Below are positions 9,477 through 12,664 of a DNA stretch of 64,000 nt, one piece after another. Each line of letters opens with the position of its first letter. The first letter of the stretch is position 1. The position numbers and the translations under genes are program-made. This DNA comes from Promethearchaeota archaeon. GTDB taxonomy: Archaea; Asgardarchaeota; Lokiarchaeia; Sigyniarchaeales; SOKP01. Under the pieces are notes generated by a model. It made no database searches. It saw only the letters and a program-made list of their open reading frames with translations, and was not told the origin of the DNA. The stretch is from NCBI GenBank assembly GCA_016839585.1, contig JAEOTZ010000018.1, positions 32,001 to 96,000 of the forward strand. The letters run 5' to 3'.

Positions 9477-10403
9477 ATGAAAATTAGACCTTTTGAATCA
9501 AATGACAAGACTAGAGTTGTAGAGGTACTGGATCGAGTACTTAAGTATGATAATCCTGCTTTGGGGATGGATGAAGACCTGTTTAATGCAGCATTAGCAT
9601 TCGAGGGTGAGCAGACTATTCTTTCCCGTGATTTTTTGGTTGCAGAAGATAATGAAGGAAAAATAATTGATTTTAGTGGTCTTCTTAAATCTTCTAAGCG
9701 AGATTCTTGGCGGTTAGCATTTGAGGTAATACCAGAATATTTTACATCAACTATTTTTGTAGAATTATTTGAATCGATATTAAACATCAAAAATGAACAA
9801 AATGGCCCAGAGATTAGATTTTCCTTAAAAAAATATAAATTAACAGATTCACCACTTCAAAGAAAGCTCAATGAAATGGGATTAAAACCAGTTCATTATA
9901 ATTGGGAGATATTTTTAGAGGATACTGACCCACCTCCCAAAATAAACGTTCCACCTGGCATTAATATTCATTCAGGTAAGGATGTAACTGATATAGCGAG
10001 TTATATTAATGTGCATAATGAAGCTTTTAGTGAACATTTTGGATTCAGACCTTATTCAGAAAAAGAATTCAAATTAATCCTTAAGAAAGCATGGAAAGCA
10101 TATGATATTGAACATTGGTTTGCTTATGACAAAGAAAAACTTGTTGGGGTTTGCACCTCTCAAATCAATCCAGAATTTAAAACGATTGGTCTTATACAAA
10201 TATTAGGTGTTCTTCCAAGTTATCAGCACCGGGGAATTGGAAGATGCTTGCTGGCATCTAACATTCAATCACTTATTGAGAAGGGATGTGAAAAGATCGA
10301 GTTAGGTGTTGAGGCTAATAATGAAAAAGCGTTAACTTTGTATAAGAAATTTGGTTTTAAAGAAGATGAATCACGAACAGTAATGATCTATAAAACTAAA
10401 TAA
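9477..10403 (+). CDS. Tandem GNAT N-acetyltransferase (MshD-like)
   Basis: LGVLPSYQHRGIGRCLL and NEKALTLYKKFGF in the C-terminal GNAT; a degenerate N-terminal GNAT domain. Confidence 0.85.
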   Translation: MKIRPFESNDKTRVVEVLDRVLKYDNPALGMDEDLFNAALAFEGEQTILSRDFLVAEDNEGKIIDFSGLLKSSKRDSWRLAFEVIPEYFTSTIFVELFESILNIKNEQNGPEIRFSLKKYKLTDSPLQRKLNEMGLKPVHYNWEIFLEDTDPPPKINVPPGINIHSGKDVTDIASYINVHNEAFSEHFGFRPYSEKEFKLILKKAWKAYDIEHWFAYDKEKLVGVCTSQINPEFKTIGLIQILGVLPSYQHRGIGRCLLASNIQSLIEKGCEKIELGVEANNEKALTLYKKFGFKEDESRTVMIYKTK

Positions 10404-10600: not shown

Positions 10601-11638
10601 GTGGCTAAAAGAATATCGATCAATGGATTCGGAAGGATTGGGCGCAATTTTTTTCGCGCGTTATCGGAAAAATATCCCAATGATATCGAAGTTGTTTCCA
10701 TTAATGATTTGTTTGAACCCAAATATCTAGCTTATGTCTTAAAATACGATACAGTATTTGGAAGATTTCAGGGTACTGTCGAGTCTAATGAAAATGCGTT
10801 AGTTGTGAATGGGAAAGAAATTCCAATCACAGCTGAGAGAGATCCAGCAAATTTACCACATTCGAGTAATAATATTGATGTAGCAGTAGAATGTACTGGA
10901 TTCTTTACTAAAAGAGAAGGTGCCGCAAAGCATTTAGAAGCAGGGGCTAAACGAGTCCTTATCAGTGCACCTGCCGTTAATCCAGACTTTACTGTCGTTA
11001 TCGGGTGTAATGATGATAAATTAACTAATGAGCATAAAATTATCAGTATGGCGAGCTGTACTACTAATTGTTTAGGTCCTGTAGTAAAAGTGTTAAATGA
11101 CAATTATAAAATACAAAGCGGTATTATGACCACAATTCACTCATACACCGGTGATCAGAGAACTGTGGATACCGCACGAGCAGGAGATCCTGTAAAGATG
11201 ATTAGAGGAAGAGGCGCCGCTGCAAATATTTTACCAACAAGTACTGGAGCGGCAAAAGCAATTGGTGTAGTCTTTCCAGAGTTGAACGGTAAGCTAGATG
11301 GTATAGCAATGCGTGTCCCAACACCAGATGGATCAGTAGTAGATTTAAAATGTAATGTAGAAAAAAGAGCGACAGCAACAGATATTAATAATAAAATGAA
11401 AGAATATGCAAATGGACAATTAAAAGGAATTTTAGAATATACTGACGATGCGATTGTAAGTAGCGATATAATAGGAAATCCAGCGAGTTCTATTTTCTCT
11501 TCACTATGGACAAAAGTTATAGGGAGTATGGTTGGCGTAGTCTCGTGGTAATCTTGCTACAATTAGTAAAAAGACCATATTGATAATGAATGGGGCTTCT
11601 CGAACCGTATGGCTGATTTGATCGTTCAAAAATTATAG
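10601..11638 (+). CDS. gap: Class I (bacterial/eukaryote-type) glyceraldehyde-3-phosphate dehydrogenase, predicted spliced CDS join(10601..11550,11581..11638), 335 aa
   Basis: NGFGRIGR, ASCTTNCL catalytic motif, TGAAKA, RVPT. The ORF stops at VVSW*, but the missing C-terminus DNEWGFSNRMADLIVQKL* is encoded in the same frame at 11582-11638. Confidence 0.93.
11551..11580 (+). other. Predicted 30-nt bulge-helix-bulge (archaeal tRNA-type) intron in gap mRNA
   Basis: Central 4-bp helix GUGG(11545-48)/CCAU(11575-78); 3-nt bulges UAA(11549-51) and AUU(11579-81); intron helix UCUU/AAGA capped by GCUA-caau-UAGU; exon pairs UC/GA. Cutting after the second nt of each bulge gives TGG TA|T GAT AAT GAA TGG = WYDNEW. 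Confidence 0.88.
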
Positions 11639-11835
11639 ATGATTAATTACTAAATTCTCTTATTTTTTTATTTTTTTATCGTTTAATTTTCTTTCTAAAA
11701 TTCAATTGATAAATAAACCAATTTCCAAATTCTTCATCTAATTCAAAATTGTACTTTCTAATTGAGAAAAAGAAAAATTCTTTGTTTATTCCCATAAAAT
11801 ATATTTAATTGAAAGGACATTAGAATTATTATAAA

Positions 11836-12255
11836 ATGAATGTTGAAAAAATAAAGAAAGTATTAACAGAAATTTTATTAGAAAATAAGGAGATTATCGC
11901 ATCCTATCTTTATGGTTCTGTATTATACAGTGATTTATATGAAGATATTGATGTTGGATTATTAATTAGCGATATTTTTAAACCGAAACTAATGTATGAA
12001 GCAAAAATAGCTGGAAAATTAGAAAAAAAGCTTAGAGATACTTTTGGGGAGATTAAACCAGTAGATGTTAGAATTTTAAATGACAAACCTTTAAGATTTC
12101 TTTTTTCAATGCTTAAAAATTCTAAAATTATTTGCTCGAGTGATGAGACCAAAAGAATTAAATTTGAAGCAGAAGTTATGAAAGAATATTTAGATATTAA
12201 GCCACATTTCGAAATTTATGATAAGATGAGAGAGTTAAGATATGCAAATAGATAG
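11836..12255 (+). CDS. Minimal nucleotidyltransferase (MNT/MntA-type antitoxin)
   Basis: YLYGS...DIDVG, VDVRILN; overlaps the downstream HEPN gene. Confidence 0.88.
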   Translation: MNVEKIKKVLTEILLENKEIIASYLYGSVLYSDLYEDIDVGLLISDIFKPKLMYEAKIAGKLEKKLRDTFGEIKPVDVRILNDKPLRFLFSMLKNSKIICSSDETKRIKFEAEVMKEYLDIKPHFEIYDKMRELRYANR

Positions 12256-12664
12256 AGAATTAATTCATGGAAAAATAGATATTATTGAACGAAATATTAC
12301 CTTTTTAAATACATATAAAGAAAAGAGTGAAGTTGAAATTTTAAGTAGCTATAAAGATGTTCAAGCTATTAAATATTCACTATTTGAAATAATTGAAGCT
12401 TGCATTGATATTGCGTCGCATATAATTTCTGGTAAAGGCCTTCAAAGAGCCGAAAGTTATGCTGAAATGTTTGAGATTCTTGGAAAAAATGATATTTTAA
12501 AAACTCAATTGAGTAAAGAATTATCCAATATGGCAAGATTCAGAAATGTCCTTGTTCATGGATATGCTAAAATTGATAATTCTAAGATTCTTGTTTTTAC
12601 AAAAGAAAAACTAATAGATGTGGAAAATTTTATTAAAGCAATAATAGAATTAATAAAAGAATAA
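12242..12664 (+). CDS. HEPN/DUF86 RNase toxin (HepT-like)
   Basis: RFRNVLVHGY (Rx4H-Y motif); paired with MNT. Confidence 0.88.
   Translation: MQIDRELIHGKIDIIERNITFLNTYKEKSEVEILSSYKDVQAIKYSLFEIIEACIDIASHIISGKGLQRAESYAEMFEILGKNDILKTQLSKELSNMARFRNVLVHGYAKIDNSKILVFTKEKLIDVENFIKAIIELIKE

What the first reader, a model, noticed from the sequence alone, without database searches (positions are those of the whole stretch)
11543..11583. Canonical bulge-helix-bulge intron in a protein-coding gene (GAPDH): predicted tRNA-type mRNA splicing in a probable Asgard archaeon
Seen: GAPDH reads ...GTC TCG TGG TA|ATCTTGCTACAATTAGTAAAAAGACCATAT|T GAT AAT GAA TGG GGC TTC TCG AAC CGT. Removing 11551-11580 restores the conserved VSWYDNEWGFSNR and a normal 335-aa enzyme. 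The RNA folds into a textbook BHB: 4-bp helix GUGG/CCAU, two 3-nt bulges (UAA, AUU) on opposite strands, intron stem UCUU/AAGA with a GCUA-caau-UAGU hairpin, and exon pairs UC/GA. Established: the archaeal splicing endonuclease EndA cuts after the second nucleotide of each bulge and RtcB ligates. That rule gives exactly the junction TA|T (Tyr), so RNA structure and protein conservation agree independently. The archaeal mRNA intron I know as well documented is the one in crenarchaeal cbf5. Inference: this lineage splices an mRNA of core metabolism with the tRNA machinery, and other genes annotated as truncated in such genomes may hide similar introns.
Basis: partly seen in the sequence, partly recalled or inferred. 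Interest (0 to 1): 0.96.

Follow-up and report, generated by a model that had tools for sequence, protein, structure and literature searches.

The report
tRNA-type mini-intron in Asgard GAPDH gene

Summary
No RNA data could be obtained.

- **The insert:** removing window 11551-11580 restores a 335-aa class I GAPDH. The insert folds as a canonical bulge-helix-bulge (BHB) whose rule-based cut sites rebuild the invariant Tyr codon. Chance of such a motif at a fixed site and length is about 3e-4.
- **Same site elsewhere:** five other Promethearchaeota contigs carry an insert at the same site. The four complete ones are also 30 nt; one contig ends inside its insert. The hairpins differ in sequence but share one layout (1+9+5+9+4+2), and all 9 stem pairs show compensatory changes.
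- **Exon evidence:** all six intron-bearing alleles use the Ser codon TCG, which the BHB needs. It occurs in 0 of 18 close intronless alleles. Exon 2 stays in frame.
- **Genome context:** this is the only Gp_dh_C-family gene here. An alpha/beta EndA pair and RtcB are present.
- **Distribution:** intron-bearing alleles are scattered on the gene tree, and alleles 98-99% identical lack the insert. In two lineages, synonymous differences cluster around the insert, which suggests gain or loss by recombination.
- **Other genes:** the scan had already noted similar mini-introns in other genes of this genome. I confirmed several. The RNase HII intron is present in 23 species of the genus.

It is a new member of the cbf5-type class.

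The parts
10601..11550 (+). GAPDH exon 1 (GTG start to the first two bases, TA, of the Tyr codon)
   Evidence: ORF list; Pfam Gp_dh_N and Gp_dh_C, E 3e-36 and 1e-55; 73-99% identical to intact 335-aa Promethearchaeota GAPDHs
11551..11580 (+). 30-nt BHB mini-intron: 1 nt, 9-position stem (11552-11560), 5-nt loop (11561-11565), stem (11566-11574), H3 CCAU (11575-11578), 2 nt; holds three in-frame stop codons, counting the TAA that spans the 5' boundary
   Evidence: Direct reading; absent from 113 other species genomes of the order and from 98-99% identical alleles; same layout in 4 other contigs, with 9 of 9 stem pairs covarying
11581..11638 (+). GAPDH exon 2 (T of the Tyr codon, then DNEWGFSNRMADLIVQKL and stop TAG 11636-38)
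   Evidence: Spliced translation; exon 2 intact and in frame in all five complete intron-bearing alleles
11543..11548 (+). Exonic half of the BHB: h strand UC (11543-44) and H5 GUGG (11545-48). Bases 11543-45 are the Ser codon TCG
   Evidence: TCG in 6 of 6 intron-bearing alleles, 0 of 18 close intronless alleles and 3 of 44 intronless alleles overall
11549..11551 (+). 5' bulge UA|A; predicted cut after 11550
   Evidence: BHB geometry checked against this genome's own tRNA-Leu(CAA) 37/38 intron and the published rule
11579..11583 (+). 3' bulge AU|U (cut after 11580) and h strand GA (11582-83)
   Evidence: Direct reading; both h pairs invariant in the five alleles
11542..11608 (+). Tract of clustered synonymous differences around the intron (candidate co-conversion tract)
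   Evidence: 9 of the 18 CDS mismatches to the closest intronless alleles lie at 11542-45 and 11590-11608. All 7 closest alleles share them. The same pattern is seen for L043 against L041

Best explanation
Window 11551-11580 is an archaeal BHB intron inside the GAPDH mRNA. In the transcript, exon bases UC-GUGG pair with exon GA and intron CCAU, and the intron forms a 9-position stem-loop. This presents two 3-nt bulges separated by a 4-bp helix. The (alpha-beta)2 splicing endonuclease EndA cuts between the 2nd and 3rd bulge residues (after 11550 and after 11580). RtcB then joins the exons, rebuilding the codon TA+T (Tyr) and a full 335-aa GAPDH. Unspliced RNA would give a 316-aa truncated protein.

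Shown here: the anatomy, the restored reading frame, structure conservation and covariation, exon codon covariation, presence of the enzymes, and further introns of the same build in this genome and genus.

Inferred, not shown: cleavage and ligation in vivo.

The intron is a rare allele. It appears to enter or leave GAPDH genes by homologous recombination that carries about 10-30 nt of flanking exon with it.
For: 1. Removing the 30 nt restores the invariant SWYDNEWG(Y/F)SNR motif and the normal C-terminus. All 113 other matching genomes of the order have an uninterrupted gene.
2. A strict BHB at the protein-defined junction has a chance rate of 2.75e-4.
3. L043, L114, L115 and L116 carry 30-nt inserts at the same junction, and L117 has one cut by the contig end. 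On alignment A1, 86.7% of cells pair, against 28-45% when the partner is slid. All 9 h' pairs change on both sides, and 0 of 500 shuffles reach the observed values.
4. The cut rule gives TA|T in all five complete alleles.
5. The Ser codon TCG occurs in 6 of 6 intron-bearing alleles and 0 of 18 close intronless ones.
6. Exon 2 is kept in frame, and within DNEWGxSNR the differences are synonymous apart from F/Y.
7. There is a single Gp_dh_C-family match in a 99%-complete genome.
8. EndA alpha has the Y/H/K catalytic residues (my reading of the ORF) and is most similar to the A. pernix catalytic subunit. A second paralogue has no His at the aligned catalytic position. RtcB is present. Asgard EndA is reported as the broad-specificity (alpha-beta)2 type (PMC5829648).
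9. Other genes of this genome are split the same way: RNase HII (DEAG|RGP), a Ras/Arf-like GTPase, thioredoxin and DnaG.
10. The RNase HII intron is present in 23 of 23 matching genomes of the genus and absent in the 6 inspected loci from the other three families. There 92% of cells pair, against 28-41% slid.
Against: The outer helix h is only 2 bp, and the minimum-energy fold prefers a slightly different register. One allele with an insert at this site (L115) pairs at only 2 of 4 positions in the central helix, so at least one copy is relaxed or decaying. The intron is absent from 98-99% identical alleles, so in G000 it is young, and a very recent inactivation cannot be excluded from this genome alone. 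A homology-free genome scan for more ORF-restoring BHBs showed no enrichment over its local control.
Confidence: 0.85

Rival explanations
1. A recent inactivating insertion: the GAPDH gene of this strain is a fresh pseudogene, and the hairpin only resembles a BHB.
For: The insert is absent from alleles 98-99% identical, so little time has passed for decay to show. L115 has a weakened central helix.
Against: This is the only Gp_dh_C-family gene in the genome. The BHB fits the junction at a chance rate of 3e-4. Five other lineages carry an insert at the same site; the four complete ones are also 30 nt, show compensatory stem changes and keep exon 2 intact. The Ser codon TCG covaries with intron presence.
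Confidence: 0.05
2. The BHB is cut by EndA but the exons are not efficiently rejoined. The element would then act mainly as a cleavage switch that lowers GAPDH expression, not as a productive intron.
For: BHB cleavage without coding consequences is known: a 5'UTR BHB in Haloferax HVO_1309 (PMC7714728). The intron contains in-frame stops.
Against: Exon 2 is conserved at the protein level in all intron-bearing alleles, and there is no second GAPDH, so a productive joined mRNA is needed. RtcB is present.
Confidence: 0.05
3. Translational bypassing: the ribosome hops over the 30-nt hairpin, as over the 50-nt gap of phage T4 gene 60.
For: There is a stop codon right at the take-off position (TAA in G000, L043 and L116) and a hairpin at the start of the gap.
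Against: No matched take-off and landing codons exist. A hop cannot assemble the Tyr codon from TA plus T. The in-frame codon before GAY is ATT or AGT (Ile or Ser), not Tyr, in all alleles. L114 and L115 have no stop at the take-off site.
Confidence: 0.02
4. An assembly or binning artefact introduced the 30 nt.
For: The genome is a 91-contig assembly, and I could not inspect reads.
Against: Independent assemblies from NCBI, JGI and Logan hold inserts of the same length and layout at the same site. The flanking exon carries a matching haplotype.
Confidence: 0.01

Closest known systems
cbf5 pre-mRNA intron of Crenarchaeota (Watanabe 2002; Yoshinari 2006; Yokobori 2009, PMC2738675)
   Same: A BHB-type intron inside an archaeal protein-coding gene. 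Cuts are predicted between the 2nd and 3rd bulge residues. The host has a hetero-oligomeric, broad-specificity EndA. Gain and loss occur among relatives.
   Different: A different gene (core glycolysis/gluconeogenesis, not an RNA-modification enzyme) and a different phylum (Promethearchaeota). Here the BHB is canonical and the length is a fixed 30 nt. The distribution is patchy at strain level rather than clade-wide. The cbf5 introns were confirmed by cDNA; this one is not.
Archaeal tRNA BHB introns (hBHBh' motif), for example this genome's own tRNA-Leu(CAA) 37/38 intron
   Same: Identical geometry: h, 4-bp H, 3-nt bulges, h', and cuts after the second bulge nucleotide. The same enzymes are expected to act.
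   Different: The exons are mRNA coding sequence, so helix h and strand H5 are built from codons and constrain synonymous codon choice (TCG). The intron carries in-frame stop codons.
BHB intron in the 5'UTR of Haloferax volcanii HVO_1309 (PMC7714728)
   Same: An EndA substrate in an mRNA outside tRNA and rRNA.
   Different: That one lies in an untranslated leader. This one interrupts the reading frame and must be removed precisely to make the protein.
HAC1/XBP1 unconventional mRNA splicing in eukaryotes (IRE1 endonuclease plus tRNA ligase/RtcB); comparison from general knowledge, not tested here
   Same: Spliceosome-independent removal of a short intron from an mRNA by a protein endonuclease and the tRNA ligase. 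The C-terminus of the product changes.
   Different: A different endonuclease and recognition motif (twin stem-loops). It is stress-regulated, and there is no evidence of regulation here.

Membership tests
Archaeal BHB (hBHBh') intron | Two 3-nt bulges on opposite strands separated by a 4-bp helix | tested here: met
   GUGG/CCAU between bulges UAA and AUU. H pairs in 90% of cells across five alleles.
Archaeal BHB (hBHBh') intron | Flanking helices h (exon-exon) and h' (intron) of at least 2 bp | tested here: met
   h is UC/GA, 2 bp, invariant in five alleles. h' has 7 of 9 positions paired in G000 and 82% of cells across alleles. h is at the minimum length.
Archaeal BHB (hBHBh') intron | Cuts between the 2nd and 3rd bulge residues yield a functional joined product | tested here: met
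   TA+T gives Tyr and restores WYDNEWG and a 335-aa protein. The same holds in four other alleles. The rule is stated in PMC2738675.
Archaeal BHB (hBHBh') intron | Host encodes the splicing endonuclease and the RtcB ligase | tested here: met
   PF01974 matches twice (an alpha-like and a beta-like ORF) and PF01139 once.
Archaeal BHB (hBHBh') intron | Structure, not sequence, is conserved among inserts at the same position (covariation) | tested here: met
   9 of 9 h' pairs have changes on both sides; 0 of 500 shuffles reach the observed values; slid controls pair at 28-45%.
Archaeal BHB (hBHBh') intron | Excision and exon ligation observed in RNA or in vitro | not testable with these tools
No transcript data were reachable.
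Programmed translational bypass (T4 gene 60 type) | Matched take-off and landing codons flanking the gap | tested here: not met
   Take-off would be TGG. No TGG or cognate codon precedes GAY, and the Tyr codon exists only after joining TA and T.
Multi-copy mobile DNA element (MITE or repeat) | Other copies of the same sequence in the genome | tested here: not met
   blastn-short of the 30-mer and a 60-mer finds only the locus itself.

The most novel reading that the evidence does not exclude
Promethearchaeota carry a population of stereotyped BHB micro-introns of about 30 nt (1+9+5+9+4+2) in protein-coding genes, and these behave like exchangeable alleles. Some are fixed across a genus, such as the RNase HII intron in 23 species. 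Others, such as the GAPDH intron, are rare and patchy, and move in or out of genes by homologous recombination that co-converts 10-30 nt of flanking exon, which is tuned to form the BHB through the Ser codon TCG. [quoted passage not shown]
Probability: 0.45. Interest if true: 0.9.

Novelty: new member of a known kind. Interest (0 to 1): 0.8.

Why it matters
A 2020 paper (PMC7714728) knew of only one reading-frame-interrupting BHB intron in archaeal mRNAs, in crenarchaeal cbf5, plus one 5'UTR case. Four full-text searches found no report for Asgard archaea.

This locus puts such an intron in a central-metabolism gene of an Asgard archaeon, and the genome holds several more. Three consequences follow.

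- **Annotation:** genes called truncated or split in these genomes may be intact. The database protein for this gene is the 316-aa fragment (P0001).
- **RNA structure and coding:** the exons show that RNA structure can constrain synonymous codon choice.
- **Intron dynamics:** the strain-level presence or absence, with clustered flanking differences, offers a direct way to study how protein-gene introns are gained and lost in the lineage closest to eukaryotes.

Tried and rejected
- **Homology-free genome scans for more introns.** I scanned for BHB motifs whose removal fuses two coding-looking ORFs, in strict, architecture-specific and loop-specific versions. Against a local control (intron length changed by 1 or 2 nt) none showed enrichment. 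The AT-rich genome gives too many chance hits. This is no evidence for or against further introns.
- **Genome-specific loop motif.** I considered that this genome's introns share a loop motif (C-AAUUM-G), which would point to spread within the genome. Hits with that loop were no more frequent than with a scrambled loop (18 against 18), so I dropped the idea.
- **Rfam.** No family matches around the locus.
- **Repeat element.** There is no second copy of the insert in the genome.
- **Pattern scan of 185,579 species genomes.** I searched for TCGTGGTA, then 20-50 nt, then TGAYAAYGARTGGGG. It gave four chance matches and no further interrupted GAPDH.
- **tRNA introns.** ARAGORN output and my BHB listing were too noisy to compare intron architectures systematically. 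I used only the clear tRNA-Leu(CAA) case.
- **Readthrough.** Stop-codon readthrough of the insert is rejected because the insert holds two or three in-frame stops per allele.

Full report
**What is at the site**

The window is G000 contig C90, bases 32001-96000, in a 3.45-Mb genome of 29% GC that is 99% complete. An ORF from GTG 10601 carries Pfam Gp_dh_N and Gp_dh_C and stops at TAA 11549-51. Thirty bases later the frame continues as DNEWGFSNRMADLIVQKL. Joining 10601-11550 to 11581-11638 gives a 335-aa class I GAPDH. The closest database homologues are labelled type I GAPDH of Promethearchaeota/Lokiarchaeota, so the Asgard assignment holds.

**The RNA motif**

Read on the sequence, the motif has these parts:
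- exon UC (11543-44) pairs with exon GA (11582-83), forming helix h;
- exon GUGG (11545-48) pairs with intron CCAU (11575-78), forming helix H;
- the bulges are UAA (11549-51) and AUU (11579-81);
- the intron forms a stem-loop, helix h'.

This is the hBHBh' arrangement. I checked the geometry against a bona fide intron of the same genome. The tRNA-Leu(CAA) 37/38 intron has anticodon stem, then CUCA, then AG|A, then the intron, then UGAG, then AA|A, then stem. Yokobori et al. state that cleavage falls between the second and third bulge residues (PMC2738675). Applied here, the rule cuts after 11550 and after 11580 and joins TA to T, giving the invariant Tyr.

The MFE fold uses a neighbouring register (-11.3 kcal/mol, z = -2.6). 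On a 65-nt segment, forcing the BHB costs about 2 kcal/mol (-9.2 against -11.5). Across this genome a minimal strict BHB at a given site and length occurs with frequency 2.75e-4. The match between the protein-defined junction and the RNA rule is therefore not chance.

**Relatives without the insert**

Thirty relatives examined in detail have an uninterrupted gene reading SWYDNEWG(Y/F)SNR. So do all 113 other matching species genomes of the order, apart from genes cut by contig ends. This includes a species 98% identical. Metagenome contigs and MAG contigs 97-99% identical at the protein level, with the same neighbouring genes, also lack the 30 nt (L034 and L124-L129). In G000 the insert is therefore a strain-level allele.

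**Relatives with an insert at the same site**

Five other contigs are interrupted at exactly TGG TA|...|T GAY:
- L043, a metagenome WGS contig;
- L114 and L115, from two NCBI MAGs;
- L116, a Logan assembly;
- L117, a JGI contig that ends 8 nt into its insert.

The four complete inserts are all 30 nt. All share the layout 1 nt, 9-position stem, 5-nt loop, 9, 4 nt complementary to GUGG, then 2 nt, while their stem sequences differ almost completely.

On the five-sequence alignment, 86.7% of cells form standard pairs, against 28-45% when partners are slid by 1-3 columns. All nine h' pairs show changes on both sides, and none of 500 shuffles reaches the observed values. H3 is CCAU or CCAC, a G-U to G-C change. 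L115 is the exception, with only 2 of 4 H pairs.

In every allele the cut rule gives TA|T. Exon 2 is intact and in frame in all five. Within DNEWGxSNR it differs only synonymously, apart from F/Y.

**The exon covaries with the intron**

The serine codon before TGG supplies U43 and C44 (helix h) and G45 (the first base of H). It is TCG in all six intron-bearing alleles. Among 18 close intronless alleles it is AGC (11), AGT (5), TCA (1) or TCT (1), never TCG. Among all 44 distinct intronless alleles in hand it is TCG in 3, all distant. AGC could form neither h nor the first H pair.

**Distribution and mode of gain or loss**

On a quick maximum-likelihood tree of 120 alleles, the six intron-bearing ones are scattered, and several pair directly with an intact allele. 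Six changes are needed, and well-supported branches force at least five.

G000 differs from its closest intronless alleles at 18 CDS positions. Nine of them lie in the 37 exon bases next to the insert (11542-45 and 11590-11608). All nine are synonymous, and all seven closest alleles share them. That is 21% divergence locally against 0.9% elsewhere.

L043 shows the same pattern against its 98% identical intronless relative L041: 9 of 21 mismatches lie within 42 nt of the junction. The flank it carries, from GGCGTAGTCTCG-TGGTA to TGATAATGAATGGGGC, is identical to G000's.

The simplest reading is that intron presence or absence is exchanged between alleles by homologous recombination, with co-conversion of a short exon tract. 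Some of the changed bases (positions 39/87, 43, 44, 45) also create outer-helix pairs, so selection for the BHB may contribute. The data do not tell whether each event was a gain or a loss.

**Is the gene needed, and is the machinery there?**

Gp_dh_C has a single match in this genome, which is this gene. The same search detects the GAPDHs of all 14 control genomes, archaeal ones included.

The genome has two EndA-family ORFs. One (201 aa) carries what I read as the catalytic Tyr, His and Lys and is most similar to the catalytic subunits of the heterotetrameric crenarchaeal enzymes (3p1z_B, 3ajv_B, 2zyz_B). It aligns without gaps through what I take to be the Crenarchaea-specific loop region. 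The other (200 aa) has no His at the aligned catalytic position, as expected of a beta subunit.

RtcB is present. This matches the published statement that Asgard archaea have the (alpha-beta)2 EndA with the L1 insert associated with broad substrate range (PMC5829648).

**Other mRNA introns in the genome and genus**

Earlier notes of this scan listed similar inserts in other genes of this genome. I treated them as leads and checked several myself.
- **RNase HII (contig C52).** The gene is split inside DEAG|RGP by a 30-nt insert of the same layout, and its exon 2 covers Pfam positions 9-199 of 199.
- **Ras/Arf-like GTPase (C47).** It is split by a 30-nt strict BHB, and exon 2 starts at Ras model position 40.
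- **Thioredoxin (C25).** It is split by 25 nt, with Pfam positions 17-64 before the insert and 68-87 after it.
- **DnaG (C61).** It is split by 40 nt between DIVGAIFGQ and TEGLL.

The RNase HII insert is present in 23 of 23 matching genomes of the genus (30 nt in 22, 29 nt in one). It is absent in the six inspected genomes from the three other families of the order. There 92% of cells pair against 28-41% slid, and H covaries (UGGU/GUUA, UGGC/GUUA, UGGG/CCUA, UGGU/ACCA). An essential catalytic motif kept split for the lifetime of a genus, with both halves conserved, is hard to explain unless this lineage splices such mRNAs.

**Rivals**

- **Fresh pseudogene.** This cannot be excluded for G000 alone, because the allele is young. 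It does not explain the recurrence at one site, the covariation, the TCG codon or the conserved exon 2.
- **Ribosomal bypass.** This fails because there are no matched take-off and landing codons, and the Tyr codon exists only after joining.
- **Assembly error.** This is unlikely given independent assemblies with the same feature.
- **Cleavage without efficient ligation.** This remains a minor possibility.

**What is not shown**

No RNA, cDNA, peptide or enzyme assay supports the splice. My homology-free scans for further introns were uninformative.

**Comparison with the literature**

The closest precedent is the cbf5 pre-mRNA intron of Crenarchaeota. A 2020 paper states that this was the only BHB intron known in an archaeal mRNA besides its own 5'UTR case (PMC7714728). 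Four full-text searches found no report of such introns in Asgard archaea. That covers only the library searched.

I file this as a new member of a known kind. Its unusual features are the fixed 30-nt build, several host genes in one genome, and a patchy distribution linked to recombination.

Noticed in passing
window 11718-12647: About 930 nt holding two small ORFs (11836-12255 and 12242-12664). From their size and overlap I guess they are a nucleotidyltransferase/HEPN-type toxin-antitoxin pair; I did not run a family search. The stretch is absent from all seven close relatives, where the GAPDH gene is followed directly by the LPG_synthase_C gene. It is a strain-specific insertion right downstream of the intron-bearing gene.
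   Followed up: partly
L134-L156 (RNase HII loci of 23 genomes of the genus); G000:C52 around 9653-9682, minus strand: A 30-nt BHB mini-intron splitting the RNase HII catalytic motif DEAG|RGP is present in every matching genome of the genus. It is absent in the six inspected loci from the other three families of the order. It shows 92% pairing and covariation in the central helix.
   Followed up: yes
G000:C47:50778-50807 (+), G000:C61 around 45800 (-), G000:C25 around 15400 (+), G000:C2:58875-58904 (+), G000:C53:10955-10984 (+): Further BHB-type inserts of 25-40 nt. They lie in a Ras/Arf-like GTPase, DnaG, thioredoxin, a protein of unknown family (10 of 10 stem pairs) and a gene reading ...GAEVIKVE|PPPFGESF. 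The first three split recognisable Pfam domains or conserved motifs.
   Followed up: partly
intron positions 14-16 (window 11564-11566) and the same columns in L043, L114 and L115: An in-frame TAG sits at the same position of the loop and 3' stem in four of the five complete GAPDH introns. L043 and L115 share CGCTTAG, and L114 has CGCATAG, although these alleles lie in different parts of the gene tree. This could reflect common descent of the introns, a loop constraint, or selection for a stop in unspliced mRNA.
   Followed up: no
G000 whole genome (ARAGORN): Only 30 tRNA genes were called, 19 of them with introns, many at non-canonical positions. One call is a tRNA-Gln with a 1376-nt 'intron' on C50. 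The tRNA set is probably heavily disrupted and under-predicted.
   Followed up: no
L157 (G021:C43:15021-15641): The RNase HII match in this genome of the genus has one in-frame TGA inside it.
   Followed up: no
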